DNA from: Gammaproteobacteria bacterium
GTDB taxonomy: Bacteria > Pseudomonadota > Gammaproteobacteria > Magnimaribacterales > TMED112
Assembly (NCBI GenBank): GCA_038147295.1
Contig: JAYQTH010000002.1
Location: 741,850-805,849 of the forward strand
Direction of reading: 5' to 3'
DNA length: 64,000 bases
Shown here in pieces: positions 18,460 through 55,801 of the stretch (the stretch's first letter is position 1; each line of letters begins with the position of its first letter). The translations under genes and the position numbers were made by a program. A model generated the notes under the pieces. It was not told where the DNA came from, did no database searches, and worked only from the letters and a program-made list of their open reading frames with translations.

Positions 18460-18578
18460 TGGAAATATTTTTGATAATCATTCTTATATTGCTTGTTATT
18501 GCAACCTATTTTCTATTTAACGTGCGAGCCAGCAAAAAACAAACGGATAGAGACAATAGAATTAAGTGGAAACACTAA
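18459..18578 (+). CDS. Candidate 39-aa single-TM micro-protein
   Basis: My translation is MEIFLIIILILLVIATYFLFNVRASKKQTDRDNRIKWKH. The ATG overlaps the upstream stop (TAATG). The 3-prime end would overlap the convergent LOG gene by 17 nt. There is no homology evidence. Confidence 0.2.
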   Translation: MEIFLIIILILLVIATYFLFNVRASKKQTDRDNRIKWKH

Positions 18579-37301: not shown

Positions 37302-39365
37302 CTAAAAATAATAGCTAAATACGACCCTAGCATTGAATGGTTCACCTACGCTAACTTGATGCATGGCGTGGGCATGTGGAAAATAAAGTTCATCGAACAG
37401 GTTCTCAAGATGTAGACGCAGTGTAAGCCGTTCGCTGTAGCTGTATGAACCAGATATATCTAGACGACTATACTGAGGTAAAGTTAAAGCCTCATTGTCA
37501 TCCATAATTAATGATTCGCCTTGCGATAAATAACCAAAACCAAGATTAAGTTTATTTGTTAGCTGGTATTGGGCATTAGCAGAAAAAGTAAATTCAGGGA
37601 TTTCTCGAGGTGTGCCTCCTGATTGAGTTTTACCATTCAATGAGGTGTAACTGGCCATAACATATGAAAAGTTTTGTCCAATATCCCCTTTAACTTCGAG
37701 TTCATAACCATCCACACTTAGTCCCCTAATGTTGTATGTTTCACCAGATATATTATCCCGTGCTGCTCTAATTTGTTGACTGTTAAAATAAGCAGCTGTT
37801 AGATTTAATTGATTATTAAGCAGTATTTTTATCCCAATTTCTTTGCTTTCAAAAACATCTGGATCCAATCGAGCTGCACTGGAATTTAATTTTTTATATT
37901 GTTCTCCTGATCTTGGTAAAAAGCTTTCACTGTAACTTAAGTACATTGATACATTTTGTTGTGGTTTAAATATTAATCCTCCTCTGGGTGATAAAGTGTT
38001 GTCTTTTTTTGTCTCTAAGGTGTTGCTGATGTGATCCTCAACACTAATATCAAATTGATCCAATCGAGCTCCTATAACCAACTTCCAGCGTTCACTTAGA
38101 TCTATCTGATCTTGCAGATAAAATGAAGAGATAGTTATTTCAGAATGAGTTTTACTATTAGGAGTTAAGTAACTTAAAGAGGTATCTATACCACTACTAT
38201 TTATAGCAAAGTCGATAGGTGTTGAAATAGAAAATAAATCAGTATCGTTCTGAGTTGCTGACCAATATGCATCGAAACGTGAATTATTATTGGTGGTTTG
38301 AATGTATTCAATACCGAACAACAAGGTATGAATAACCTTACCATAATTGATTTCATTTATAAGGTTGCTGGAAAAAATAAAGTTATCTCGTTTGGTTGGG
38401 TCTAAATATCCGTCCATCATTATCAGGCTACCATCGTAATCCGATGTATAAATGTTCTGATAAACTTTCTCAAAATTATTTGCTGTAAGGTTGAAGTTAG
38501 CCTTAAATGTATCTGACATTTGATAGCTTGCCTGTAATCTATAAATATCTGCTTCTAGGGTGTGATAATTAAAATCAGGATTGCCAAATACAGTGTTTCT
38601 TAAGGATGTATCTGGTCTACCATAGAGTGTAGGGATCCCTCTATCAATAAATCTTTCATGATTGATGTATTCGTATGAAAGGTTAAGAGTTAGCTCAGAA
38701 CCGAGAATTAGTGTTAATGAAGGGTTTATACCCATCCTATTACCAAAGAAATGATCTCGATGATTCTCTAGTTGATCAGTATGTAGGTTGATACGTAATC
38801 CAGAGTTTATGCCTAATATATGATTGCTATCTATTGCTAAATCTGTCCCTCCAAAAGTATTGAGCCCTAAATTTAAATGAGTAAAGTTTTCTGAAGTTAC
38901 AGCTTTTTTTGTAACACGATTTACAATGCCACCAGTGCCACCTCTGCCAAAAAGCAAGGCGTTTGGACCACGCAGTATCTCTAGTTGATCAACATTGTAT
39001 AAGGAGCGAATATATTGAACATCATCGCGTATCCCATCTTGATAGAAATCGGCAGTAGATCTGATACCCCTTATGACAATAGCATCTCTATGCCCTTCCC
39101 CTTGTGAACTAGTGACACCTGGAACAAATCTAATAATATCTTCAATATTGCTAAAACCATTATTTAAAATTTCTTCATCGGTAATGATAGAAACAGTTTG
39201 AGGTACATTGAGTATCGGAACTGGGGTTTTTAAAGCACTTACTTGGTCTTGATAAAGAACTTTGCCCTTTACTACAAGCTCTTCTAGATCAGAATTATTT
39301 TCACTACAAACAAAGTTAATAAATACTAAAAGAAAAAAAACTTTAAATTTATTGTTTAATATCAT
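37302..39365 (-). CDS. TonB-dependent outer-membrane receptor (siderophore/iron-complex type)
   Basis: 687 aa. A signal peptide is followed by a TonB-box-like LEELVV, a plug domain (VPGVT...G....I.IRG, LEILRGPNALLFG.GGTGG) and a C-terminal barrel ending in F. Two Fur boxes lie upstream. Confidence 0.9.
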   Translation of the reverse strand: MILNNKFKVFFLLVFINFVCSENNSDLEELVVKGKVLYQDQVSALKTPVPILNVPQTVSIITDEEILNNGFSNIEDIIRFVPGVTSSQGEGHRDAIVIRGIRSTADFYQDGIRDDVQYIRSLYNVDQLEILRGPNALLFGRGGTGGIVNRVTKKAVTSENFTHLNLGLNTFGGTDLAIDSNHILGINSGLRINLHTDQLENHRDHFFGNRMGINPSLTLILGSELTLNLSYEYINHERFIDRGIPTLYGRPDTSLRNTVFGNPDFNYHTLEADIYRLQASYQMSDTFKANFNLTANNFEKVYQNIYTSDYDGSLIMMDGYLDPTKRDNFIFSSNLINEINYGKVIHTLLFGIEYIQTTNNNSRFDAYWSATQNDTDLFSISTPIDFAINSSGIDTSLSYLTPNSKTHSEITISSFYLQDQIDLSERWKLVIGARLDQFDISVEDHISNTLETKKDNTLSPRGGLIFKPQQNVSMYLSYSESFLPRSGEQYKKLNSSAARLDPDVFESKEIGIKILLNNQLNLTAAYFNSQQIRAARDNISGETYNIRGLSVDGYELEVKGDIGQNFSYVMASYTSLNGKTQSGGTPREIPEFTFSANAQYQLTNKLNLGFGYLSQGESLIMDDNEALTLPQYSRLDISGSYSYSERLTLRLHLENLFDELYFPHAHAMHQVSVGEPFNARVVFSYYF

Positions 39366-39378
39366 CTGATTTTTAAAT

Positions 39379-39397
39379 GAGAATGATTCTCGTTTAG
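39379..39397. promoter_or_regulatory. Fur box 1 (proximal to the receptor gene)
   Basis: GAGAATGATTCTCGTTTAG contains the perfect palindrome GAGAAT-G-ATTCTC. The core AATGATTCTC resembles the AATGATAATCATT core of the Fur consensus. It lies over the expected transcription start of the receptor promoter. Confidence 0.65.
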
Positions 39398-39406
39398 TAT
39401 ATTATT

Positions 39407-39425
39407 GAGAATGATTCTCATTTGC
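39407..39425. promoter_or_regulatory. Fur box 2 embedded in a promoter spacer
   Basis: GAGAATGATTCTCATTTGC matches the Fur consensus GATAATGATAATCATTATC at 14 of 19 positions by hand alignment. On the minus strand it fills the 17-nt spacer between TTGCAA (39422-39427) and TAATAT (39399-39404). Confidence 0.7.
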
Positions 39426-39467: not shown

Positions 39468-40625
39468 ATGGCCAGATTAAAAAAATATATAACAAACAGA
39501 GGTTTCTTACCCGAAGCAACTCCTTTAAGAGCTGTGCAAAATAAAACTGCTAGTACAGATATAATTAACAACGTAGCACTCGAACTTCCAAAACTTCTTC
39601 TTACCAATCAAATACGTCCAACAATAAACAAAATTAAAAATTTAGATCTACATCTAAATGATCACTCTCTAGAGGAGCAAGAATTACTCTTTGCACAACT
39701 CTCATTTATAGCCCATGCATATGTTTGGGGCGACTTAAAGCCTGTCCAAAATTTACCACACAACATTAGTGCACCTTGGGTTAAGCTTTCAGAAAAATTT
39801 AAACGCCCTCCTATCCTGAGTTATGCCTCCTATTGCTTACACAATTGGTACAAAATTAATGAAACTAAAGATGTTTCTTTAGATAATGTGGCCCTAATCA
39901 ATAATTTTTTAGGTGGCATAGATGAGGATTGGTTTGTAACGATCCATGTATGCATAGAAGATGCTGCGAGTCCAGCAATATCAAGTATAGCTAAAATTGT
40001 AGATGATGAGCTATGGAATGATGAGTCGTTATTAGCAGAAGAGTTGCAAACCGTAAAAGAATCTATGGCAAAAGTAAATGAAATCTTTAGATTAATGCCA
40101 GAGAAATGCGATCCATATATCTACTACCATAGAGTAAGACCATATATATTTGGATGGAAAAACAATCCAGATTTACCCGATGGTCTAATTTATGATGGTT
40201 TTTTTCAAAATAAACCGCAATTATTCAGAGGTGAAACAGGTGCACAGAGCTCCATTATTCCATCTCTTGATGCATTGTTTAATGTTCATCATGAGAAAGA
40301 CGAATTACGAGATTATCTTGATGAAATGAAACTTTACATGCCAGATAATCATAGAAATTTCATTCGAATAGTAGAAGAAGAATCTAAAGTTAAAGATGCT
40401 GCACTTTCTAGTAGCAAAATTAATGCTTTAGTTAATGATTGTCTTGATGAGATGACAAACTTTCGATCTCAGCATTTGCAATATGCTGCAGATTACATTC
40501 ATCAACAAAATGTTAAAAGCACACTATTTGGTACAGGAGGTTCTACAGTTAGAGGCACAGGCGGAACACCCTTTATGAAATATCTTAAAAAACATAGAGA
40601 CGAAACCAACACATCAAAAAGATAA
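39468..40625 (+). CDS. Indoleamine 2,3-dioxygenase-family heme protein
   Basis: 385 aa, collinear with the IDO1 C-terminal signature blocks as I recall them. The pairs are GETGAQSS (IDO GGSAGQSS), MKLYMPDNHRNFI (MRRYMPPAHRNFL), FRSQHLQYAADYI (LRSYHLQIVTKYI, proximal His) and RGTGGTPFMKYLKKHR (KGTGGTDLMNFLKTVR). Confidence 0.85.
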   Translation: MARLKKYITNRGFLPEATPLRAVQNKTASTDIINNVALELPKLLLTNQIRPTINKIKNLDLHLNDHSLEEQELLFAQLSFIAHAYVWGDLKPVQNLPHNISAPWVKLSEKFKRPPILSYASYCLHNWYKINETKDVSLDNVALINNFLGGIDEDWFVTIHVCIEDAASPAISSIAKIVDDELWNDESLLAEELQTVKESMAKVNEIFRLMPEKCDPYIYYHRVRPYIFGWKNNPDLPDGLIYDGFFQNKPQLFRGETGAQSSIIPSLDALFNVHHEKDELRDYLDEMKLYMPDNHRNFIRIVEEESKVKDAALSSSKINALVNDCLDEMTNFRSQHLQYAADYIHQQNVKSTLFGTGGSTVRGTGGTPFMKYLKKHRDETNTSKR

Positions 40626-40669: not shown

Positions 40670-41788
40670 ATGTTTAAAAAACTTTTTACTGCTTTCACAC
40701 TCGTTTTACTAACTGCTTGTGGCGGTGGCGGTGGCGGCTCTGAAGCTCCTGCTCCAGCTCCAACTCCAGCACCAACACCAGCACCAACGCCAGCACCAAC
40801 TCCTGAGCCTACTCCTGAGCCAACGCCGGAACCAACACCAGCACCAACACCAGAACCAGTAACCAATGTTACTTACTCTGATGATTTTGAAGCTTATTCA
40901 TCTGATGATGCTAACTTAGCACCATGGGATGCTTATGTTAATCAGTTTAATGCTGATGGTTCATACATTGGTGGATATGCTGCAGCTCCAGCTCCAATAG
41001 CAGGCGATATTAGTGCACTAGTTGAAGAGGAAGTTAACAAATACGTCAATATTTATAGCAACTATCAAGACGGCACTCACAATGGAGGTATTGTTGAAGC
41101 AAATTTCTTTAGAGAGCTCGGAGCAGACGAAGGTTTAATTACAGCTTCAATGGTTGGAACATATCGTATGACTTTTGACGCCAAACACCCTGAATCCAAT
41201 AATTGTGGCTCAACTAACCCTGACAATGGAGCAAGTGGTGCTGAATGTAGTGCATTTATAAAAGTTTTAAATTCAAGTGATTTTAATGAATTACTTTTTG
41301 TAGAGACTGATACAACAGAATTAACCACAGAGTGGCAAACTTTGACTTTAGATTTTGAAATTACAGAAGCAATGGTTGGTCATATTTATCAATCCGGATT
41401 TATGAATACAGCAGGCAATTACGCTCCAACTGGCGTACATTACGACAATGTCAAAGTTGAGACTTATTCAGAAACTGTAGAGGTCACCGTAACCAATCAA
41501 GGCAACACCTACTATATGAATGGTGAAATGCATGGCAGCATTACAGTGCGTCGTGGTCAAACCGTTGTATTTGACACCTCAGCATTTGGTAATAGTCATC
41601 CATTTCGACTTAGCAAAACTAAAGATGGAACATTTGGTGGTGGAACTGCTTACACTGAAGGAGTTAGTGGTGACCAAAATACTCTGACATGGGTTGTTCC
41701 GACAGATTTAGACGTTGATACAATGTACTATTTCTGCACTTTACATGCCGGAATGGCTGGAGATGGAGTAATCAATATAATTGATTAA
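40670..41788 (+). CDS. Lipoprotein with Pro/Thr/Ala/Glu linker, central beta-sandwich-like domain and C-terminal cupredoxin-like (type-1 Cu) domain
   Basis: 372 aa. The lipobox is LLTAC, followed by G6 and a (PAPT/PEPT)n linker. The central region ends in HYDNVKVE, which is CBM-like. The C-terminal ~100 aa carry candidate Cu ligands His310 (NSHPF) and Cys356-x2-His359-x2-Met362 ([12 protein letters not shown]). That spacing is the same as in amicyanin-type blue copper sites. Confidence 0.7.
40745..40858 (+). repeat. In-frame imperfect 12-bp tandem repeat encoding the (P-A/E-P-T)n linker
   Basis: The repeat reads gctccagctccaactccagcaccaacaccagcaccaacgccagcaccaactcctgagcctactcctgagccaacgccggaaccaacaccagcaccaacaccagaacca, encoding [38 protein letters not shown]. 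Confidence 0.9.
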
Positions 41789-42171
41789 TTAACGGTTATT
41801 AGTATCTCTTCAGAATAAATTGGGTTGCTATGTGGAATATGTACATAGTTTCCAAGTAGCAACCTCAATCTGTATTCACCTTTAGGTAGCTCCAATACAG
41901 CTTCAGTCTGTCCCTTGCCAAAATGAATATGATTGCTATCAGCAGGGATTGGTTTAGTTAAATCGATTGGAAAATCAACGTTGATCAACAAGTGATGATG
42001 GCCGGTGTTATCAATATCGTAACCTGCAGGAGCAACGCCAAAATCCTTTAATCCAAAAACAACTTTTACTGGCCCTGAAATATTTGCTTTATTTTGCGGT
42101 TCAATAAAATAAAGTTCGGGTTCAGATAGTAGGATCTGAGATACGAGATAAATTAAAGCAAGCCTTTTAAT
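41785..42171 (-). CDS. DUF4399-like secreted protein; no canonical start codon (candidate ATT start)
   Basis: The frame is open from a TAA at 42190-42192 down to the stop at 41785. My translation is (I)KRLALIYLVSQILLSEPELYFIEPQNKANISGPVKVVFGLKDFGVAPAGYDIDNTGHHHLLINVDFPIDL...ILITVN, and the GHHHLL motif is typical of DUF4399. The only ATG/GTG/TTG in frame is the internal TTG used by the ORF track (68 aa), which would delete the signal peptide. The ATT at 42169-42171 is preceded by GGAGAAGGA. Confidence 0.6.
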   Translation of the reverse strand: MKRLALIYLVSQILLSEPELYFIEPQNKANISGPVKVVFGLKDFGVAPAGYDIDNTGHHHLLINVDFPIDLTKPIPADSNHIHFGKGQTEAVLELPKGEYRLRLLLGNYVHIPHSNPIYSEEILITVN

Positions 42172-42911
42172 ATTCCTTCTCCAATAAGAAATTTATTTAT
42201 ACCCTCATTTTGGTAAATTTCCAAATCCTTAGAATTAGAAAACCCTGATTCAGCGATTATAGAGAAATTTTGAAAGTCATTACTATATTTTTTATATAGC
42301 CTAAGAGCATGCATATTATCTGTCTGCAGGGTTTTAAGATTTCTGTTATTAATACCTATATGGTCTAGTTCCTGGTTTAGCACCTTACCCAATTCACGTT
42401 CTTCATGAAATTCAAGTAAAACGTCTAGATCAAGCGACTTAGCAAGCTTTATAAATGCTGAAATTTGAGCTTCCGATAAGTATTCAGCAATAAGCAGAAT
42501 ACAATCAGCACCTATGTATTTTGATTCGTATATTTGCCACTCATCAAAAATAAAATCTTTTCTTAGCACTTTTAAGTTGGTATTTGAGGCAATCTTTGTG
42601 AGGTCTGAGTTTACACCATAAAAGTACCCAGATTCAGTTAAGACAGAAATATTTTCATAGCCTTTCTCTTCGTAGGATTGTGCTATTGAAAGAGGGTCAT
42701 ATTGCTCCTTAATGATACCTGCTGATGGAGAGCCTTTTTTAGTTTCAGCAATAATTTTAAAATTGCTTCTATTGCCATCTAAGGTGCTAAAAAAATTTCC
42801 AGAGCTACGCTTTTGGTCAAAATTTTCAATAAAAAAATCTATGGATTGGATTTTCTTAGCTTCAGCTACTTGGGCTCTTTTTAACTGAAATATGGTTTCA
42901 AGCTGATTCAT
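42153..42911 (-). CDS. trpC: Indole-3-glycerol-phosphate synthase
   Basis: 252 aa with IIAETKKGSPSAG, LRKDFI and INNRNL. Confidence 0.9.
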   Translation of the reverse strand: MNQLETIFQLKRAQVAEAKKIQSIDFFIENFDQKRSSGNFFSTLDGNRSNFKIIAETKKGSPSAGIIKEQYDPLSIAQSYEEKGYENISVLTESGYFYGVNSDLTKIASNTNLKVLRKDFIFDEWQIYESKYIGADCILLIAEYLSEAQISAFIKLAKSLDLDVLLEFHEERELGKVLNQELDHIGINNRNLKTLQTDNMHALRLYKKYSNDFQNFSIIAESGFSNSKDLEIYQNEGINKFLIGEGILKGLL

Positions 42912-43912
42912 TCTTGAGTTGCTTTGGCGTACACATTCAAGTTAAGAAGGACTTTTCCGGATATTAATTGTTTTTTTGCTATTTCAAAACATTCGATTAG
43001 ATCATCGCATAATCCTAATAAATACAAACAGAAACCTGCATTTAGAGCTACCATATCCAGTCCTGGTCCTCTTTTACCATTTAGCACCTCTACCCCAAAC
43101 AGGTAAGCTTCTTCAAGTGATTGTACCTGGATATCAGATAGAGAGCAGTCTACAAAGCCATAATCTTTAGGATTGAATTGCCATTCTAAGATTTCATTAT
43201 TTCTAATTTCGGTTATTGAAGTTGGTTCATGTATTACTATTTCATCAATGCCTGAACTAGAGGTTGCGACTATACCTCTTTGTATTCCATTATTTAACAA
43301 AGCATTTGCCATATCTCTGTTAATAGAAGAATCGGATGTTCCCAGCAATTGGAATTGTGGTTTGGCAGGGTTAACAAGTGGCCCCAAGATATTAAATATT
43401 GTTCTTACACCTAACTCTTTACGAACTTTAGCAACATTTTTTAATTTTGGATGTTGATTTGGAGCAAATAAAAAGCAAATGCCTAATCTTTGATATAGGT
43501 TGATAAGCTGACTGTTATCAACATTTAAATTTACACCGGCCCTTTCTAGGAAATCAGCGCTTCCAGATTTGCTTGTTATTGATCTATTGCCATGTTTGAT
43601 TACTTTCCCGCCACATGAAGCAACAGTAAATGCAGAAAGGGTCGAACAGTTAAAAATTGACTGACCAGAACCACCTGTACCACACGTATCGATACAATCG
43701 TTATGGTCTAAGTCAATTAGATTAGAGTGTTTAAGGATCTCATTTGATAATACGGAAAGATGATTATAGTTAATGCCAACTTCATTTAAACTTAATAAAA
43801 TTTCTTTTTTCTCTTCATCAGATGAGTCTTCACTAAGCAAATGACTGAATAAAAACTCTAGTTCCGCTTTTCGCGATGTTGAGTTGTTTAGTATTGCTAA
43901 TAGATTATCCAT
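42908..43912 (-). CDS. trpD: Anthranilate phosphoribosyltransferase
   Basis: 334 aa with DTCGTGGSG, KHGNRS.TSKSGSAD and NILGPL.NP. Confidence 0.9.
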   Translation of the reverse strand: MDNLLAILNNSTSRKAELEFLFSHLLSEDSSDEEKKEILLSLNEVGINYNHLSVLSNEILKHSNLIDLDHNDCIDTCGTGGSGQSIFNCSTLSAFTVASCGGKVIKHGNRSITSKSGSADFLERAGVNLNVDNSQLINLYQRLGICFLFAPNQHPKLKNVAKVRKELGVRTIFNILGPLVNPAKPQFQLLGTSDSSINRDMANALLNNGIQRGIVATSSSGIDEIVIHEPTSITEIRNNEILEWQFNPKDYGFVDCSLSDIQVQSLEEAYLFGVEVLNGKRGPGLDMVALNAGFCLYLLGLCDDLIECFEIAKKQLISGKVLLNLNVYAKATQE

Positions 43913-44486
43913 ATAAAGTAAAAAAGTTATCTAATAACTTATTGCCTTGTTCGGTAAATATTGATTCAGGATGAAACTGAATGCCCACAACCGGATACGT
44001 TTTGTGTTTAACTGCCATTATTGTTTTTTTATTATCATCCTCACACCAGGCCAAAATCTCAAGATCATCTGATACAGATTTTTCAGAGATTACCAAGCTG
44101 TGATATCTCATGGCAATGTATGGTTCTTTTATATTTTGAAAAATTGAAGATTTAGTGTGGCTGAGATTTGACGTCTTGCCATGCATTATTTTATCAGCAA
44201 TGACAATTTTCCCACCGAACACCTCACCTATACATTGATGTCCTAAACAAATACCTAAAATAGGTTTCTTATCATAAAAATAATTTATTAACTCTAAGCT
44301 TATACCAGCATTTTTAGGGTTTGATGGGCCAGGACCAATAACAAAAGCATCGTAATCCAGTTGAGATATCTCATCAATGGAGATCTTATCGTTACGTATA
44401 ACATTTACTTCGTGATCAAGCATTAAAAGCTGATGTTCAACGTTAAAAGTAAATGAATCGTAATTATCAATTAGACAGATTTTCAT
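43905..44486 (-). CDS. trpG: Anthranilate synthase component II (glutamine amidotransferase)
   Basis: 193 aa with GPGPS.P, GICLGHQ, and QFHPES. Confidence 0.9.
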   Translation of the reverse strand: MKICLIDNYDSFTFNVEHQLLMLDHEVNVIRNDKISIDEISQLDYDAFVIGPGPSNPKNAGISLELINYFYDKKPILGICLGHQCIGEVFGGKIVIADKIMHGKTSNLSHTKSSIFQNIKEPYIAMRYHSLVISEKSVSDDLEILAWCEDDNKKTIMAVKHKTYPVVGIQFHPESIFTEQGNKLLDNFFTLYG

Positions 44487-45925
44487 TTATATCTTAACGC
44501 CTCATAAAATACCTTAGCTTTTGATTCTGTTTCTTCCCACTCTGAATCGGGATCTGAATCGTAAACAATTCCTGCTCCAACACCAACTTTTACATGATCA
44601 TCAAAATGCATACCGGTACGAATAACAATGGCTGTATCCAGTGAACCATTAAATCCTAAATATCCTACTGCACCGCCATAAACACCTCTTGGTCGTTTTT
44701 CAATTTCGCTTAGAATCTCCATAGCCCTTATTTTTGGAGCTCCACTTAAAGTACCAGCTGGCAAGGCTGCTTTCATGCAATCTATAGTTGAAACGTCTGT
44801 TTTTGATCGTCCAATCACATTCGATGTCATATGCATAACGTGAGAGTATTTCTCAACAACCATCATTTCATCTACTTGAACGGTTCCTTGCTCACATACT
44901 TTTGAAAGGTCATTCCTTGCTAAATCAACAAGCATCATATGTTCAGATTTTTCTTTTTCATCCTCAATAAGATCGATTTTATTTTTTAGGTCCTCAGATT
45001 TATTAAGACCTCGCCTACGTGTGCCTGCAATAGGTCTTATTGTTACTTTGTCATCATTTTTTTGAACCAGTATTTCTGGTGAGGAACCAATAATTCGAAA
45101 TTTGTCAAAGTTTAAGAAAAACATATAAGGCGATGGATTAATTAATCGAAGAGCACGGTAAAGCGTATAGGGATCAAATTCACCATCAAACGTAATCTCC
45201 TTTGATAATACTGCTTGCATTATTTCGCCTTGGTTAATTAGTTTTTTTAGGTCTTTAACTTGATTTATAAATGTTTTTTTATCGACATTGGAAGATGATT
45301 TTAAGGTTTTATTATCTATTGAAATGCTTTGATTAACAGAAGGTTGAAGAGAAAATACCGCTTGTTTAATTTCGGAAATTCTTTTCTTTGCTTTCTCCCA
45401 GCCTATTTCTGACTTATCGGTAGTATTAACTACGATATAAAATGTACCTTTGAAGTTATCAAAAATAATTAATTCATTGCATTCAATTAGAGATATTAGA
45501 GGTATGTCTTGATCTGGAAAAGTAACTTTATGCTCTATAAATTGGAATGATTCATAACTAAAGTAACCAACCAAACCTCCAAGAAATTCAGGGAGATGAT
45601 TTATTTTTGGTGATGAAAAAGATTGACTAATTTTATCTATATGATCATAAGCATTAATAATTCTTTGTTTTGTAGTTTGTGAATCATTAACTATTTCTAA
45701 CTCATCTTTAAAGTAATTGTATTTTTTCTGAGATGGAAGGCTCATTATTGAGTAACGGCCTTTTACTTCATGAGATTTTGCTGATTCAAATAAAAAAGTA
45801 TTTTCTTGATTGTAAAAGTTTGAATAAACGTAAAGCGGACTTACCAAATCTGCTGTAAATTCTTCATATACTGGTATGTGTGAATAAGATGAATTCTTGT
45901 ATCTTAAAAAATCTTCTTTATTCAT
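44483..45925 (-). CDS. trpE: Anthranilate synthase component I
   Basis: 480 aa with LFES, NPSPYMFF, IAGT..RG, DL.RND, and GAVGY....G..D.AI.IRT. Confidence 0.9.
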   Translation of the reverse strand: MNKEDFLRYKNSSYSHIPVYEEFTADLVSPLYVYSNFYNQENTFLFESAKSHEVKGRYSIMSLPSQKKYNYFKDELEIVNDSQTTKQRIINAYDHIDKISQSFSSPKINHLPEFLGGLVGYFSYESFQFIEHKVTFPDQDIPLISLIECNELIIFDNFKGTFYIVVNTTDKSEIGWEKAKKRISEIKQAVFSLQPSVNQSISIDNKTLKSSSNVDKKTFINQVKDLKKLINQGEIMQAVLSKEITFDGEFDPYTLYRALRLINPSPYMFFLNFDKFRIIGSSPEILVQKNDDKVTIRPIAGTRRRGLNKSEDLKNKIDLIEDEKEKSEHMMLVDLARNDLSKVCEQGTVQVDEMMVVEKYSHVMHMTSNVIGRSKTDVSTIDCMKAALPAGTLSGAPKIRAMEILSEIEKRPRGVYGGAVGYLGFNGSLDTAIVIRTGMHFDDHVKVGVGAGIVYDSDPDSEWEETESKAKVFYEALRYK

Positions 45926-46697
45926 TTTTAATTGCTTTAAGGATGGGTGTCAGGAATTTGCGTAATTTTGCTTGATGATTATCTTGGTTTAATAATTCAA
46001 CAATGGCACTGCCAATCACAAATCCATCAGCGTGAGATTTAAACTCATTTATTTGTGATGGATCTTTTAATCCAAAGCCTAAGACAACAGGCAAACTAGT
46101 TTTATCTCTAATGGCTTGAATATTGTCTAAAACCTCATTTTTATTGATATTTGATGATCCAGTAACTCCTCTTTGAGAGATGAAATATATAAACGCAGGA
46201 TTGTTTGATATGCATGATTCAATTTCATTTAATGGAGTAGTTGGGGCGATAAGTTGAATAAATTCAATTTCATTATCATGAAACGTTTTATAGATATCTT
46301 TTTCTACGTAAGGTAAATCTACAATTAAAAAGCCATCAACAAGTGCTTTTTTTGCTCGCTCTATAAATGCTTCTAGGCTTGGAGAAATAAATGAATTGGT
46401 ATATCCCATTAAAACAATTGGTATATCAGAATCTAATTTAAAATTTTTAATTACTTCCAATGCACTGACTAAATTAAAATTATCATTAAGAACTTGATGA
46501 TGTGCGGATTCAATAATCTTACCTTCAGCAATTGGATCAGAAAATGGGATGCCAACTTCAATTAAATCTGCCCCTAAATCTTTTAAGGTATACAAAGTTT
46601 CAGTAAAAACATCTTGGTTTGGGAAATTAGCGACCACATAAGGTATAAATGCCTTTTTTTGATTGGCCGCTAAATTTAAGAACTTATTTTTTATCAT
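45918..46697 (-). CDS. trpA: Tryptophan synthase alpha chain
   Basis: 259 aa with [17 protein letters not shown] and GF.VGSAIV. Confidence 0.9.
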
Positions 46698-53453: not shown

Positions 53454-53798
53454 TTATTTAAAGAAATTAAACATTTTTGAATCCATATTTCGTAAGTAAC
53501 TATAGACAGTCACAAGAATTAACGAAATACAAATCGGATAAAAGTAAGTTTCTATAAAAACTAATGGATTGATAAAAATTTGATTAAAGTTATTAATGAT
53601 AGAAAAGATTAATTCATGATTGATTGCACCAATTACTATAAACACAAGAAAAAACATTAAATCAATAATACCAATAGATGCTGATGATCTTATCTTTGAC
53701 ATCATTACTACGTATCTAGCTAACAAATTAGGATTATTGACTTTATAGTGTTTAAGCTTCTCGCCTGCAATAGCATTTTTTAGGTTATTGTTTCTCAT
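53454..53798 (-). CDS. Small membrane protein downstream of the ECF sigma (possible anti-sigma; unsupported by motif)
   Basis: 114 aa with two to three TM helices. The start overlaps the sigma stop (ATGA). No zf-HC2 or RskA motif is seen. Confidence 0.45.
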   Translation of the reverse strand: MRNNNLKNAIAGEKLKHYKVNNPNLLARYVVMMSKIRSSASIGIIDLMFFLVFIVIGAINHELIFSIINNFNQIFINPLVFIETYFYPICISLILVTVYSYLRNMDSKMFNFFK

Positions 53799-54286
53799 TT
53801 TAACTTCTCTAAAGCTCTTTTTATTACCGACTTTACAGTATTTAGATTCATACTAAGATCTCTAGCTATATCGGCATTTTTATAGTCATAAATGTACTTC
53901 ATCGTAAGGATTGTGCGCTCATCTGATGAAAGATCACTGATTAGTTTATAAAAATCTTGATCATCTCCTCTATTTTCGTTGGCACTGATGTGATCCATAT
54001 TTTCTTCTAAGTTATATTTTGCATGTTTTTTCACTTCTGTACGAAAACAATTAATTGCTATAGTCGCAAGCCATCCTCTGAATTCTTTTTCTGGATTGTA
54101 AGATTTAAGATAAGAGATGGCTCTTAGAAAAGCAGTTTGAGTTAAATCCTCAGCAAACATTTGATTACCGCCTGTAAGACGCATCATAAAACCATAAATA
54201 TAGTTTGAATGTCTTTTAATAAGCTCTTCGAAATGTTCATTACCTTCTTGTATACATTTCTCTACTATTTCTTGATCTGAGATCAT
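53795..54286 (-). CDS. ECF-type RNA polymerase sigma-70 family factor
   Basis: 163 aa. Region 2 is IYGFMMRLTG....AEDLTQTAFLRA, and region 4 is ERTILTMKYIYDYKNADIARDLSMNLNTVKSVIKRALEKL. Confidence 0.85.
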   Translation of the reverse strand: MISDQEIVEKCIQEGNEHFEELIKRHSNYIYGFMMRLTGGNQMFAEDLTQTAFLRAISYLKSYNPEKEFRGWLATIAINCFRTEVKKHAKYNLEENMDHISANENRGDDQDFYKLISDLSSDERTILTMKYIYDYKNADIARDLSMNLNTVKSVIKRALEKLK

Positions 54287-54828
54287 TAAACATTAGCTGG
54301 TCTATCTTTTCTAATGATGTACTTCCCAACTAATTCAGCTAATCCAATAAAGAAGATCAATGCACCAATCCCTGAAAGTGGGTTGTAAAAGCTCTGAAAT
54401 AACAGAAGCCCAAAGAACATTAGACCCAGCCCAGTACCGGTAGTAGTGAATGCTTGATAGGAGTCTTTTTTCTTTTCTCCCTCATATCCAGGAAGAGACT
54501 TGATGACATCAACAGACAGCTCTTGGCCGTTTTGCAATGCTATTTGTAAAGTTTCATGTACTAGTTTTGCTCGTCTGTTTTTAAAAAAATTAACTATTAA
54601 AACTATCCATATTGGCAAACCAAAAAATATGATTACAAAAAATAGCCCAGTAAGTCGTCCAACATATGACTCACCAGACCACGGTGCATTCGAGGAGATT
54701 TCACTGCTGCTTGGAGAGATGCTCTCTAAACTTGTTTGAATATAAACACTTATGGAATGCATAAGATAATTTAAAGAATCAGATAAAAACTGACCAAGAA
54801 GAAGTATTAGTTCGCTTAAAGTTTCCAT
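54286..54828 (-). CDS. Membrane protein upstream of the ECF sigma (hypothetical)
   Basis: 180 aa. TM helices flank an amphipathic segment RRAKLVHETLQIALQNGQELSVDVIKSL. Its stop overlaps the sigma start by one base. Confidence 0.45.
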   Translation of the reverse strand: METLSELILLLGQFLSDSLNYLMHSISVYIQTSLESISPSSSEISSNAPWSGESYVGRLTGLFFVIIFFGLPIWIVLIVNFFKNRRAKLVHETLQIALQNGQELSVDVIKSLPGYEGEKKKDSYQAFTTTGTGLGLMFFGLLLFQSFYNPLSGIGALIFFIGLAELVGKYIIRKDRPANV

Positions 54829-54895: not shown

Positions 54896-55765
54896 TCAGC
54901 TGTAAAATCTACGCCATAGATTGATGCCAAAAATTAATGAAATTAACCACAACAGTACTTCTATATAGTTTGGATTTGAGTTGTAGCCAAAAAAACCCTT
55001 AGCAAACTCACCCGCATAACCTGAGTCATGCAAGGGGTGATAATATAGGCCCTTACTTCTATCGTACCTATAGAGGATATCGTTGTCTGGTTTCTCAGAT
55101 GTTGGCTGCAATATATCCCATGGTCGTGCAATTTGATTTTTTTCAATATAACCAGATTTTTCTAAATACTCTTCAGCTTCATGTGTGCCGTAAGCAACCA
55201 TACCGGATGCCAAAAGTACCAATAATAGTGTAGTGCCTTTAAAAAACGGCCTTAAATTAATTTTCTTTCCCAATACTACTACTAAATAACCAATATAAAG
55301 CGCCAATACTGCACCCAAAATAAAACCAATAAATGAAAAACCATCGCCTCGGTCCTGGGCCAGTAACATAACTACTGTTTCAAACCCTTCCCTTAAAATT
55401 GAAAAGAACACTACCCAAAACACACCCCAAGATGACATCTTCAAAGCTTGTTCTGTTTTAGATTCAAGGTCCTTACGATCCGAAACATGTTTTGATAGCC
55501 AAAATACAACATACCAAATTAAACCTGCAGCAGCATACATAAACAGTGCTTCAAATAATTTTTCATAGCGGGTATCGCCAGCTACTGATTTAAGGTAAAC
55601 CACTATAAATGCTACAAAAATACTAGCTAGCACTGATGCACCAACGCCAAGCCATAGTTTTGAAATTGCTTCAGTTAGATTAGAACGAGATAAAAAGCTA
55701 TAAATGATACCAACTATTAGTGACGCTTCTAAGCATTCTCGAAAGACAATTATAAACTCGTTCAT
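54896..55765 (-). CDS. FTR1/EfeU-family high-affinity iron permease
   Basis: Two REXXE-type motifs are present (FRECLEASL and LREGFETV) along with seven TM helices. I placed the start at the ATG (MNEFIIVF) at 55765. The track used the TTG at 55774. Confidence 0.85.
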   Translation of the reverse strand: MNEFIIVFRECLEASLIVGIIYSFLSRSNLTEAISKLWLGVGASVLASIFVAFIVVYLKSVAGDTRYEKLFEALFMYAAAGLIWYVVFWLSKHVSDRKDLESKTEQALKMSSWGVFWVVFFSILREGFETVVMLLAQDRGDGFSFIGFILGAVLALYIGYLVVVLGKKINLRPFFKGTTLLLVLLASGMVAYGTHEAEEYLEKSGYIEKNQIARPWDILQPTSEKPDNDILYRYDRSKGLYYHPLHDSGYAGEFAKGFFGYNSNPNYIEVLLWLISLIFGINLWRRFYS

Positions 55766-55782
55766 TGTTAACAAATACTAAT

Positions 55783-55801
55783 GAGAATGATTCTCATTTG
55801 C
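55783..55801. promoter_or_regulatory. Fur box within the FTR1 promoter
   Basis: GAGAATGATTCTCATTTGC is identical to Fur box 2 at 39407-39425. On the minus strand the layout is TTGCAA (55798-55803), a 17-nt spacer that is the box, TAGTAT (55775-55780), then 9 nt to the ATG. Confidence 0.7.

What the first reader, a model, noticed from the sequence alone, without database searches (positions are those of the whole stretch)
40670..41788. Surface lipoprotein with PT-rich tether and a type-1 copper (cupredoxin) site, possibly the missing redox partner of the solitary FTR1 permease
A lipobox (LLTAC) is followed by G6 and a 38-residue (PAPT/PEPT) tether. Next come a beta-sandwich-like domain and a C-terminal module with His310 plus Cys356-x2-His359-x2-Met362 ([12 protein letters not shown]), which is the amicyanin-type ligand spacing. 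The gene starts 44 nt after the IDO-family gene, with no obvious terminator, so it may belong to the Fur-controlled transcript. FTR1-type permeases normally need a copper or cupredoxin partner (Fet3 multicopper oxidase, the EfeO cupredoxin domain, or P19). The FTR1 gene at 54896-55765 has none adjacent, yet it carries the same Fur cassette. A tethered blue-copper lipoprotein acting as an extracytoplasmic ferroxidase or reductase would fit, but this is inference.
Basis: partly seen in the sequence, partly recalled or inferred. Interest (0 to 1): 0.55.

Follow-up and report, generated by a model that had tools for sequence, protein, structure and literature searches.

The report
Tethered SAR86 lipoprotein with phage-type cupredoxin
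A marine SAR86 bacterium encodes, next to iron-regulated genes, a tethered lipoprotein whose end domain is predicted to be a blue-copper-type fold; that domain belongs to a very large, unnamed family best known from marine phage tails, and nothing ties it specifically to the FTR1 iron permease.

Summary
ORF 40670-41788 (+) encodes a 372-aa lipoprotein: LLTAC lipobox, Gly6, a 38-residue PT tether, an orphan ~205-aa domain and a ~105-aa C-terminal domain carrying His310 and Cys356-x2-His359-x2-Met362.

With a family alignment, AlphaFold2 models the C-terminal domain at pLDDT 95. Foldseek returns mostly cupredoxins from the PDB (rusticyanin, plastocyanin, AcoP, pseudoazurin). The four residues align one-to-one with amicyanin's copper ligands and are kept in 93-95% of 224 related domains.

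Its close relatives are not iron-uptake proteins. They are modules of marine phage baseplate and tail-fibre proteins (283 cultured phage genomes, TM 0.75-0.88), adhesins and secreted nucleases. The family has at least 5,894 clusters and is almost entirely unannotated.

The gene sits in a conserved SAR86 module: TonB-dependent receptor, Fur boxes, IDO-family gene, lipoprotein, DUF4399.

- Orthologues at the same locus in three lineages lack the cupredoxin domain.
- None of 80 FTR1 loci has the domain within 10 kb.

The cupredoxin reading is supported. The FTR1-partner reading is not. Most likely this is an iron-regulated envelope lipoprotein whose copper-type domain is an interchangeable accessory module.

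The parts
37302..39365 (-). TonB-dependent siderophore-type outer-membrane receptor, transcribed divergently from the IDO/lipoprotein pair
   Evidence: Plug + TonB_dep_Rec_b-barrel. TIGR01783 scores 256 bits, above its 223.5 cutoff. Conserved at this position in L001, L006, L008, L009, L104 and L105.
39379..39419 (.). Two exact Fur-box-like palindromes GAGAATGATTCTC (39379-39391 and 39407-39419) in the divergent intergenic region
   Evidence: A promoter-like site on the + strand at 39377-39405 overlaps them. The boxes are conserved upstream of IDO in L001, L006, L008, L009, L104 and L105. They are absent upstream of IDO in SAR86 loci that lack the receptor and lipoprotein.
39468..40625 (+). 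IDO-family (indoleamine 2,3-dioxygenase-like) gene, probable first gene of the transcript
   Evidence: PF01231, E 8.1e-88.
40670..40738 (+). Signal peptide with lipobox LLTA|C (Cys17), followed by Gly18-Gly23
   Evidence: Read directly from the sequence. The lipobox is conserved in orthologues.
40739..40858 (+). S24-E25 followed by the 38-residue PT/PE-rich tether (A26-P63), aa 24-63 in all
   Evidence: Linker length varies between orthologues, from roughly 17 to roughly 60 residues.
40859..41473 (+). Orphan middle domain (aa 64-268) with conserved Cys179/Cys193 and motifs SNYxDxxH and NYAPTGxxYDN. This is the conserved core of the lipoprotein family
   Evidence: Alignment A5. Only 34 proteins match the A5 profile in a search of a 5.8-billion-protein database. 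No Pfam or PDB match. It is duplicated in L009, L104 and L105.
41474..41785 (+). C-terminal single-domain cupredoxin (aa 269-372) with type-1 copper ligand candidates: His310 (41597-41599), Cys356 (41735-41737), His359 (41744-41746), Met362 (41753-41755)
   Evidence: AF2 pLDDT 95, pTM 0.87. Foldseek PDB top hits are cupredoxins. Foldseek viral hits are phage tail and baseplate proteins, TM up to 0.88. Ligands are 93-95% conserved. hhalign to amicyanin pairs all four ligands.
41785..42150 (-). Convergent, abutting DUF4399 gene (His-rich, with a probable signal peptide). It is syntenic with the lipoprotein in all related loci
   Evidence: PF14347, E 1.8e-32. Synteny. There is no ATG/GTG/TTG start; a conserved ATT-AAA lies at the likely start.
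54896..55795 (-). FTR1-family permease (54896-55765/55774) with one exact Fur box at 55783-55795. This is the proposed partner, about 13 kb away
   Evidence: PF03239, E 4e-39. Fur box. The Fur box is conserved upstream of FTR1 in 24 of 80 related loci. No cupredoxin or middle domain lies within 10 kb in any of them.

Best explanation
The gene encodes a modular envelope lipoprotein specific to a subclade of the marine gammaproteobacterial group SAR86.

**Architecture**
- A lipidated Cys17 with Gly at +2. There is no Asp at +2, so outer-membrane sorting is inferred.
- A Gly6 run and a 38-residue PT string.
- An orphan ~205-aa domain that probably contains a disulphide. It is the conserved, and sometimes duplicated, core of the family and is probably its ligand-binding part.
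- A ~105-aa single-domain cupredoxin with an intact His/Cys/His/Met set at amicyanin-like spacing.

**The cupredoxin domain**
It belongs to a very large and essentially unannotated marine domain family. That family is used as a C-terminal or tandem module in cyanophage and pelagiphage baseplate/tail-fibre proteins, bacterial adhesins and secreted nucleases. I infer that it binds one copper ion, or another soft metal, in a type-1-like site. I infer that here it acts as an interchangeable accessory module: metal-stabilised and possibly capable of one-electron transfer. It is not the protein's essential business end.

**Regulation and role**
The gene is most likely co-transcribed with the IDO-family gene from a Fur-box promoter shared with the divergent TonB-dependent receptor. 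The protein would therefore be made under iron limitation and act at the cell envelope together with that module. It is not a dedicated redox partner of the FTR1 permease 13 kb away.

**Shown versus inferred**
- Shown: gene structure, predicted fold, ligand conservation, family distribution, synteny, Fur boxes.
- Inferred: metal binding, localisation, co-transcription, cooperation with the receptor.
For: - **Architecture and ligand positions:**
- **Fold:** pLDDT 95. Foldseek against the PDB returns mostly cupredoxins.
- **Ligands:** one-to-one alignment to amicyanin's copper ligands. 93-95% conservation over 224 domains. Invariant in alignment A3.
- **Family size and partners:** 5,894 clusters at E<=1e-3, with up to 8 matched stretches of the profile in one protein. 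Co-occurring domains include cadherin, Big, fn3, collagen, Laminin_G_3, Peptidase_S74 and DUF7483.
- **Phage relatives:** TM 0.75-0.88 to cyanophage virion, tail-fibre and gp9 proteins. 283 cultured phage genomes match. The ligands are present in P-SSM4 gp9 and in the HTVC028P tail fibre. One relative lies between SU10_adaptor genes in a phage contig.
- **Closest subfamily:** attached to GmrSD_C-type nuclease and LTD proteins.
- **The cupredoxin is accessory:** orthologues in L009, L104 and L105 have lipobox-PT-mid-PT-mid-LTD and no cupredoxin, at the same locus with Fur boxes. L001 and L008 insert an LTD between the middle domain and the cupredoxin.
- **Operon and Fur module:**
Against: - No experiment shows metal binding, localisation or iron-dependent expression.
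- The window's own domain does not reach any Pfam cupredoxin threshold.
- The function of the middle domain is unknown, and its fold was not predicted with confidence.
- The Fur boxes may control only the receptor.
- Strong conservation of a complete type-1 ligand set suggests that redox activity could matter more than an 'accessory' label implies.
Confidence: 0.5

Rival explanations
1. The tethered blue-copper domain is the extracytoplasmic ferroxidase or ferric reductase that serves the solitary FTR1 permease, by analogy with Fet3, the EfeO Cup domain or FtrB.
For: - Complete type-1 ligand set on a cupredoxin fold.
- The same exact Fur box stands upstream of both loci.
- FTR1 has no adjacent partner in the window or in 80 related loci, so a partner encoded elsewhere is conceivable.
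- A single-domain cupredoxin partner (FtrB) is a precedent (PMC11966278).
- The top Foldseek hits include rusticyanin and AcoP. By general knowledge these belong to an Fe(II)-oxidising chain.
Against: - Orthologues at the same locus lack the domain in three lineages.
- No co-localisation within 10 kb in any of 80 FTR1 loci.
- The lipoprotein family is tiny: 12 and 34 proteins in the database searches. FTR1 relatives are numerous: 134 matching stretches.
- The domain's relatives sit on phage tails, adhesins and nucleases.
- Known partners are co-operonic, and FtrB lacks the His-His-Cys site.
- There is no trinuclear cluster and no HxH motif (His positions) and no polyferredoxin nearby, so there is no electron sink.
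- The predicted outer-membrane anchor is on the wrong membrane for an inner-membrane permease, although the tether might bridge part of the periplasm.
Confidence: 0.08
2. Iron-sparing electron carrier. This would be a membrane-tethered type-1 copper protein induced under iron limitation to replace a haem c carrier in periplasmic electron transfer. The analogies, from general knowledge, are plastocyanin versus cytochrome c6, and the lipid-anchored auracyanins and halocyanins.
For: - Fur-box context.
- Canonical type-1 ligand set and cupredoxin fold.
- A lipobox plus a flexible tether resembles tethered cupredoxins known from other phyla (general knowledge, not tested here).
Against: - A 205-aa non-redox domain lies between the tether and the cupredoxin.
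- The cupredoxin is lost in orthologues.
- The closest relatives are appendages of nucleases and phage tail proteins.
- Gly at +2 suggests the outer rather than the inner membrane.
- No respiratory genes lie in the neighbourhood.
Confidence: 0.12
3. A generic surface adhesin or glycan-binding lipoprotein with no iron-specific role. The cupredoxin-like domain is a purely structural or binding module, with or without a metal, and the Fur boxes serve only the receptor gene.
For: - The family co-occurs with cadherin, Big, fn3, CBM, LTD and Laminin_G modules and with phage fibres.
- A distant middle-domain homologue lies next to a GH16 glycosidase.
- The domain architecture is highly plastic.
Against: - Tight, conserved linkage (32-55 nt gaps in L001, L006, L008 and the window; no terminator in the window) behind a Fur-box promoter in every locus that has the lipoprotein.
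- 93-95% retention of a free Cys plus His/His/Met argues for a real metal site.
Confidence: 0.2
4. A phage-interaction protein. A host lipoprotein carrying a phage-tail-type module would shield or mimic the neighbouring TonB receptor against phage adsorption. The analogy is to lipoproteins such as T5 Llp that block FhuA (general knowledge).
For: - The module is shared with tail-fibre and baseplate proteins of 283 marine phages.
- The gene lies adjacent to a TonB-dependent receptor, a common class of phage receptor.
Against: - No prophage context. The locus is chromosomal and syntenic across SAR86.
- The module also occurs on nucleases and adhesins.
- No similarity to known exclusion proteins was found.
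- Variants without the module exist.
Confidence: 0.05

Closest known systems
Single-domain type-1 (blue) copper proteins: amicyanin, plastocyanin, pseudoazurin, rusticyanin, AcoP
   Same: - Predicted Greek-key cupredoxin fold. These are the top Foldseek hits in the PDB (E ~4e-4, TM 0.55-0.60).
- A His upstream plus Cys-x2-His-x2-Met aligns to amicyanin H53/C92/H95/M98.
- The ligand loop lies between the last two strands.
   Different: - Only 12-23% sequence identity.
- Below the Pfam PF00127 threshold.
- The first His sits in an HPF/HPL motif rather than HN.
- A long conserved loop (S-T-T-x-D-G-T-x-x-G-G-x-x-Y-T-x-G-V) is specific to the family.
- It occurs as a module of large multidomain extracellular or virion proteins rather than as a soluble carrier.
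- Cu binding is untested.
C-terminal or tandem modules of marine phage virion proteins: T4-like cyanophage gp9 'baseplate wedge tail fibre connector', P-SSM2 proximal tail fibre, S-TIM5 virion structural protein, pelagiphage HTVC028P tail fibre
   Same: - Closest relatives by structure (TM 0.75-0.88, rmsd ~2 Å, 28-40% identity) and by sequence (283 phage genomes).
- Same HPF...YYxCxxHxxM signature.
   Different: - Here the module sits on a chromosomal bacterial lipoprotein behind a Fur-box promoter, not on a virion protein.
- The window's subfamily (C..H..MAG.G...INIID) is shared with bacterial LTD and nuclease proteins.
Cupredoxin partners of FTR1-type permeases: FtrB (Cup-II), the EfeO Cup domain, Fet3p
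   Same: Cupredoxin fold, extracytoplasmic location and an iron-regulated context.
   Different: - Not encoded next to FTR1 (13 kb away).
- FtrB lacks the His-His-Cys site and uses Asp118/His121 (PMC11966278). This domain has the full type-1 set.
- No trinuclear cluster as in Fet3p (no HxH motif).
- A lipoprotein with an extra domain.
Pfam PF25489 'At5g54830-like domain' (N-terminal domain of a plant cytochrome b561/DOMON protein)
   Same: 8 of 23 domain relatives and 12 of 95 full-length relatives match this model (best E 2e-5 and 2e-13). The phage/bacterial family therefore overlaps it.
   Different: - The window's domain itself gives no hit.
- Whether the plant domain keeps the Cu ligands was not examined.
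Lipid-anchored tethered cupredoxins (auracyanin, halocyanin) and poly-Gly surface lipoproteins of TonB-receptor systems (TbpB, HpuA)
   Same: A lipobox followed by a flexible linker, and a Gly run right after the lipidated Cys. This is recalled from general knowledge; it is a lead, not a test.
   Different: - No sequence similarity was detected to any of them.
- Localisation and any export machinery were not examined.

Membership tests
Type-1 copper cupredoxins (plastocyanin/azurin family) | Greek-key beta-sandwich cupredoxin fold | tested here: met
   The AF2 model built with 23 sequences has pLDDT 95 and pTM 0.87. The top 28 Foldseek PDB hits are all cupredoxins or multicopper-oxidase domains. 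This is a prediction, not an experimental structure.
Type-1 copper cupredoxins (plastocyanin/azurin family) | One upstream His plus Cys-Xn-His-Xm-Met in the loop before the last strand, at equivalent positions | tested here: met
They are invariant in A3 and 93-95% conserved over 224 domains.
Type-1 copper cupredoxins (plastocyanin/azurin family) | Match to the family HMM (PF00127) above the gathering score | tested here: not met
   The window protein gives no PF00127 hit, either whole or as the isolated domain. 3 of 95 relatives match (P0013 scores 23.5 bits against a 21.2 cutoff), and 5 of 23 match weakly.
Type-1 copper cupredoxins (plastocyanin/azurin family) | Trigonal His2Cys(+Met) geometry with ligand atoms within bonding distance | not testable with these tools
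   Model coordinates are not exposed (one search shows no model files).
Type-1 copper cupredoxins (plastocyanin/azurin family) | Binds Cu, with an intense ~600 nm band and small parallel hyperfine splitting in EPR | not testable with these tools
   Requires recombinant protein.
FTR1-associated redox partners (Fet3 / EfeO / FtrB / P19) | Encoded in the same operon as, or adjacent to, the FTR1-type permease | tested here: not met
   The genes are 13 kb apart. FTR1's neighbours are an MBL-fold protein, a DUF6249 protein, an ECF sigma factor and a hydrolase. There were no matches to the cupredoxin or middle-domain profiles in 80 FTR1 loci with flanks of up to 10 kb, 885 kb in all.
FTR1-associated redox partners (Fet3 / EfeO / FtrB / P19) | Metal site of the partner type: trinuclear cluster in Fet3, or the Cup-II Asp/His site in FtrB | tested here: not met
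   The protein has no HxH motif (His at 137, 173, 238, 257, 288, 310, 359). Its site is of the His-His-Cys(Met) type, which FtrB lacks.
FTR1-associated redox partners (Fet3 / EfeO / FtrB / P19) | Co-occurrence with FTR1 across genomes | tested here: inconclusive
   Whole-genome presence/absence could not be computed. Indirect evidence: orthologues without the cupredoxin exist, and the lipoprotein family (34 proteins) is far rarer than FTR1 relatives (134 matches).
Bacterial lipoproteins (signal peptidase II substrates) | N-terminal signal peptide ending in a lipobox [LVI][ASTVI][GAS]C | tested here: met
   [16 protein letters not shown]|C. The lipobox is conserved in L001, L006, L007, L008, L009, L104 and L105. 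No dedicated predictor was available.
Fur regulon member | Fur-box operator overlapping the promoter of the transcription unit | tested here: inconclusive
   Two exact palindromic boxes overlap a promoter-like site upstream of IDO and are conserved. Co-transcription and Fur binding were not tested.
Marine phage tail/baseplate cupredoxin-like module (unnamed; partly covered by PF25489) | Significant sequence and structure similarity, including the HPF...YYxCxxHxxM signature | tested here: met
   Foldseek against BFVD gives E down to 2.6e-10 and TM up to 0.88. tblastn finds 283 phage records. The profile search finds 5,894 clusters. The signature is present in P-SSM4 gp9 and in the HTVC028P fibre.

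The most novel reading that the evidence does not exclude
The HPF...YYxCxxHxxM modules would be genuinely copper-loaded, redox-active type-1 centres displayed outside the cell. They would sit on marine phage baseplates and tail fibres, on secreted enzymes, and on this iron-starvation-induced SAR86 lipoprotein.

If so, the lipoprotein would carry out one-electron chemistry on metal-ligand complexes at the cell surface beside its TonB receptor, for example reductive release of Fe from organic ligands. Phages would carry the same chemistry, or mimic it, to engage metal-regulated receptors. This would be a copper counterpart of the 'Ferrojan horse' idea for iron in phage tails.
Probability: 0.12. 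Interest if true: 0.8.

Novelty: new variant of a known kind. Interest (0 to 1): 0.45.

Why it matters
- **An unnoticed domain family.** The cupredoxin fold and the type-1 ligand set are textbook. This family has at least 5,894 clusters at 50% identity, carries no name in most databases, has no solved structure, and is not mentioned in the searched literature. It is a standard part of cyanophage gp9 and tail-fibre proteins.
- **If it binds copper.** Marine virions and cell surfaces would then carry blue-copper sites. That bears on phage adsorption biology and on trace-metal budgets.
- **For SAR86.** The gene marks a compact Fur-controlled module of receptor, IDO-like enzyme, modular lipoprotein and DUF4399 protein. 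Its substrate is unknown.
- **For the original question.** SAR86 FTR1 appears to be truly solitary, so how it obtains Fe(III) without a known oxidase partner remains open. This protein does not answer it.

Tried and rejected
- **Single-sequence AF2 of the whole protein.** pLDDT 38, unusable. It also used one of the two prediction slots, so the middle domain never got an alignment-based model.
- **Pfam and NCBIfam on the whole protein.** Only low-complexity matches from the PT linker (SslE, ClfB, TonB, PARP), rejected as compositional. CBM_4_9 at E 0.81 is not significant.
- **PDB sequence searches.**
  - Single C-terminal domain: nothing meaningful.
  - Family profile: only marginal multicopper-oxidase and plastocyanin hits, E 0.03-1.
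  - Middle-domain profile: nothing.
- **Genome-contig scan with the lipoprotein.** No confirmed hit. The IDO alignment was then used instead.
- **FTR1 loci.** The 10 kb flank limit cannot reach the 13 kb separation seen in the window. The test therefore shows only lack of adjacency, not lack of co-occurrence.
- **Literature.** Searches combining cupredoxin or plastocyanin with phage tail terms found nothing relevant. The 'iron-binding tail fibre' paper concerns HxH motifs, which are unrelated. The At5g54830 papers say nothing about the domain.
- **DUF4399.** No solved relative and no literature.
- **Middle-domain context.** A distant homologue next to a GH16 gene is only a weak hint of glycan binding. 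A second context was uninformative.
- **Spinach plastocyanin comparison.** hhalign aligned only the C-terminal loop, at probability 37%.
Full report
**1. The observation**

The ORF at 40670-41788 (+) is real and encodes 372 residues.
- the lipobox L-T-A-C with Cys17;
- six glycines at 18-23;
- a 38-residue Pro/Thr/Ala/Glu run from A26 to P63;
- HPF at His310;
- CTLHAGM at Cys356, His359 and Met362.

The protein has only four cysteines. They are the lipidated Cys17, a conserved pair in the middle domain (Cys179 and Cys193), and Cys356.

The upstream gene (39468-40625) is an IDO-family protein (PF01231, E 8e-88) and ends 44 nt before the start codon. The simple scan finds no terminator-like hairpin on the + strand between the two genes.

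The exact 13-mer GAGAATGATTCTC occurs three times in the 64 kb window. Two copies lie between the divergent TonB-dependent receptor (37302-39365, siderophore-receptor type) and IDO. One copy lies just upstream of the FTR1 gene (FTR1 confirmed). The descriptive part of the finding is correct.

**2. The C-terminal domain**

*Family databases.* Pfam and NCBIfam give no cupredoxin hit for this protein.

*Size of the family.* A four-sequence alignment of the C-terminal ~105 residues was searched with HMMER against 1.84 billion representative proteins. It found 5,894 clusters at E<=1e-3 and 2,086 at E<=1e-10. Some large proteins match the profile in up to eight separate stretches.

*Ligand conservation.* Across 224 domain instances from the best hits, the four candidate ligand columns are:

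| Column | Conserved residue | Count of 224 |
|---|---|---|
| His310 | H | 212 |
| Cys356 | C | 208 |
| His359 | H | 208 |
| Met362 | M | 211 |

All four are invariant in the 23-sequence alignment A3.

*Predicted fold.*
- With A3, AlphaFold2 models the window's domain at mean pLDDT 95 and pTM 0.87, as an all-beta domain of nine strands.
- Foldseek against the PDB returns mostly cupredoxins: rusticyanin, plastocyanin, AcoP, pseudoazurin and laccase or nitrite-reductase domains. E is about 4e-4 and TM 0.55-0.60.
- A profile-to-sequence alignment with amicyanin places His310, Cys356, His359 and Met362 on amicyanin's H53, C92, H95 and M98.

I could not measure the site geometry because model coordinates are not exposed. 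Copper binding is an inference.

**3. Relatives of the domain**

The best structural matches are not in the PDB. They are in the viral model library, at TM 0.75-0.88, rmsd about 2 Å and 28-40% identity. They include:
- a cyanophage S-TIM5 virion structural protein;
- 'baseplate wedge tail fibre connector' (gp9) proteins of S-RIM14 and S-H34;
- tail-fibre proteins of P-SSM2 and S-SCSM1.

A tblastn search with the window's domain finds it in 283 cultured phage genomes. These are 223 Synechococcus, 42 'Cyanophage' and 14 Prochlorococcus phages, plus pelagiphage HTVC028P and three others. The signature is intact in P-SSM4 gp9 (GGGHPFRIQS...LYYQCTLHAAMQG) and in the HTVC028P tail fibre. A metagenomic relative, P0012, lies between two SU10_adaptor genes in a phage structural block.

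Full-length family members combine the domain with cadherin, Big, fn3, collagen, SPRY, Laminin_G_3, Peptidase_S74 and DUF7483 modules. The subfamily closest to the window (C..H..MAG.G, ending INIID) is a C-terminal appendage of LTD-containing proteins and GmrSD_C-type nucleases.

Annotation of the family is almost absent:
- Of the 120 proteins listed from the second database search, one is labelled 'plastocyanin' by its source. The others carry no functional name; where a source names them at all, it is 'hypothetical protein'.
- A minority of relatives match Pfam PF25489 ('At5g54830-like domain') or, weakly, PF00127.
- I found nothing about this module in the searchable literature.

It is therefore a large, unnamed, extracellular and virion-associated cupredoxin family.

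**4. The rest of the protein and the locus**

The middle domain (aa 64-268) is an orphan. Only 12 proteins matched the protein without its signal peptide and linker, and 34 matched the middle-domain profile, in a search of a 5.8-billion-protein database. It has no Pfam or PDB match. One distant homologue lies beside a GH16 gene, which is a weak hint of glycan binding.

IDO-based loci identify the organism as a SAR86 cluster bacterium. The closest is MAG MED-G83, with 90% IDO identity.

The gene order PEMT(-), TonB receptor(-), Fur boxes, IDO(+), lipoprotein(+), DUF4399(-), trpC... is found, so far as each contig reaches, in seven related loci: L001, L006, L007, L008, L009, L104 and L105. More distant SAR86 loci have IDO without the receptor, the lipoprotein or the Fur boxes. 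Iron control therefore belongs to the receptor-containing module.

The lipoprotein's architecture varies between lineages:

| Loci | Architecture after the lipobox and PT linker |
|---|---|
| window, L006, L007 | mid + cupredoxin |
| L001, L008 | mid + LTD + cupredoxin |
| L104, L105 | mid + mid + LTD, then the stop codon |
| L009 | mid + mid + LTD, running off the contig end |

In L104 and L105 the gene ends directly before DUF4399, and no cupredoxin profile hit occurs anywhere in that interval. Those loci still have Fur-like boxes. The conserved core is therefore the tethered middle domain. The cupredoxin and LTD are swappable accessories.

**5. The FTR1 hypothesis**

I collected 80 metagenomic FTR1 loci at 54-98% identity, 885 kb in total.
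- None contains the cupredoxin or the middle domain within the flanks of up to 10 kb.
- The exact Fur box upstream of FTR1 is kept in the 24 closest loci.
- FTR1 has no conserved neighbour. The DUF6249-ECF sigma cassette seen in the window is found in only 5 of the 80 loci: three near-identical to the window and two at 65% FTR1 identity.

FTR1 does look solitary in this clade, but nothing links it to this lipoprotein beyond a shared regulator motif.

Known partners are co-expressed with their permease. The one characterised bacterial single-domain cupredoxin partner, FtrB, lacks the His-His-Cys site and uses Asp118/His121 (PMC11966278).

The mechanism is also incomplete. A lone type-1 centre can accept one electron but has no trinuclear cluster (there is no HxH motif). 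No nearby polyferredoxin is available to pass the electron on. In addition, Gly at +2 predicts an outer-membrane anchor, whereas FTR1 is in the inner membrane.

The limits of this test should be stated. The 10 kb flanks cannot reach the 13 kb spacing seen in the window, and I could not compute genome-wide co-occurrence.

**6. Most likely mechanism**

I commit to the following, at about 0.5 overall:
- An iron-limitation-induced envelope lipoprotein, probably anchored in the outer membrane, is co-transcribed with the IDO-like gene from the Fur-box promoter.
- Its tethered orphan domain provides the specific activity, probably ligand binding in support of the adjacent TonB-dependent receptor.
- Its C-terminal domain is a copper-type, metal-binding accessory module of the kind used on marine phage tails and secreted proteins.

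Confidence in the separate claims:

| Claim | Confidence |
|---|---|
| Cupredoxin fold with a type-1 ligand set | about 0.9 |
| Real metal (Cu) binding | about 0.6 |
| Fur-dependent co-transcription | about 0.6 |
| Cooperation with the receptor | about 0.3 |
| Dedicated FTR1 partner | about 0.08 |

Rival explanations are an iron-sparing tethered electron carrier (0.12), a generic adhesin with no iron role (0.2) and a phage-interaction or shield protein (0.05).

**7. Novelty and verdict**

The fold and the ligand set are known, and the lipoprotein is a lineage-specific assembly of modules. The new element is the family context. This is a very large, unannotated cupredoxin family with a conserved type-1 ligand set on phage baseplates and tail fibres, and here it is also placed behind a Fur-box promoter in SAR86.

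I rate it a new variant of a known kind, with interest 0.45. Its functional link to FTR1 is not supported.

Noticed in passing
window 41785-42150 (-); L001, L006, L007, L008: The convergent DUF4399 gene abuts the lipoprotein's stop codon with 0 nt spacing in the window, and overlaps it by 4 nt in L001. It has no ATG/GTG/TTG start before codon ~54. A conserved ATT-AAA-AGG precedes a signal-peptide-like stretch in five genomes, which suggests an ATT (or other non-canonical) start. The protein is His-rich (GHHH, HIH, HIPH) and has no known function, no solved relative and no literature.
   Followed up: partly
window 39468-40625 (+) and 42153-46697 (-): A haem-dependent IDO-family gene lies behind Fur boxes and next to the trp biosynthesis operon (trpC, trpD, trpG, trpE, trpA...). 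Iron-starvation control of a haem enzyme is odd. It could point to a tryptophan/kynurenine-derived chelator, or to a haem-related role linked to the neighbouring receptor.
   Followed up: no
window 53454-54828 (-); loci L022-L047: The DUF6249 membrane protein, ECF sigma factor and 114-aa protein cassette downstream of FTR1 is found in only 5 of the 80 FTR1 loci: three near-identical to the window (L022, L023, L043) and two at 65% FTR1 identity (L046, L047). In the 80-86% identical relatives, FTR1 lies directly between the MBL-fold gene and the alpha/beta hydrolase.
   Followed up: partly
L007 (CAJXMP010000176.1): This 6 kb contig is binned as 'uncultured Lewinella sp.'. It carries IDO, lipoprotein, DUF4399 and trpC at 95-100% protein identity to this SAR86 window, so it is almost certainly a mis-binned SAR86 contig.
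   Followed up: no
window 40739-40858; L001, L006, L008, L009, L104, L105: The PT linker is encoded by near-repetitive CCA-ACN/GAR-CCN DNA. Its length differs widely between orthologues, from about 17 to about 60 residues. Extra PT linkers separate the duplicated domains. This suggests frequent slippage or recombination and module shuffling.
   Followed up: partly
window 18473-18485 (-): A fourth Fur-box-like site (AAGAATGATTATC, 2 mismatches) lies elsewhere in the window. Its neighbouring genes were not examined.
   Followed up: no
L103 (P-SSM4 gp9, 532-1761) and L102 (HTVC028P gp32): T4-like cyanophage gp9 'baseplate wedge tail fibre connector' proteins and a pelagiphage tail fibre end in, or contain, a cupredoxin-like domain with an intact His/Cys/His/Met set. 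No annotation and none of the searched papers mention this. Virions may carry copper sites.
   Followed up: partly
L104 and L105 (long-read 'pilon' contigs): In these assemblies the lipoprotein, IDO and receptor genes are split into several ORFs by apparent frameshifts. These are probably homopolymer or repeat errors in the PT-coding DNA and elsewhere. They explain the many short 'fragment' proteins among the database hits (P0009, P0171, P0187).
   Followed up: partly
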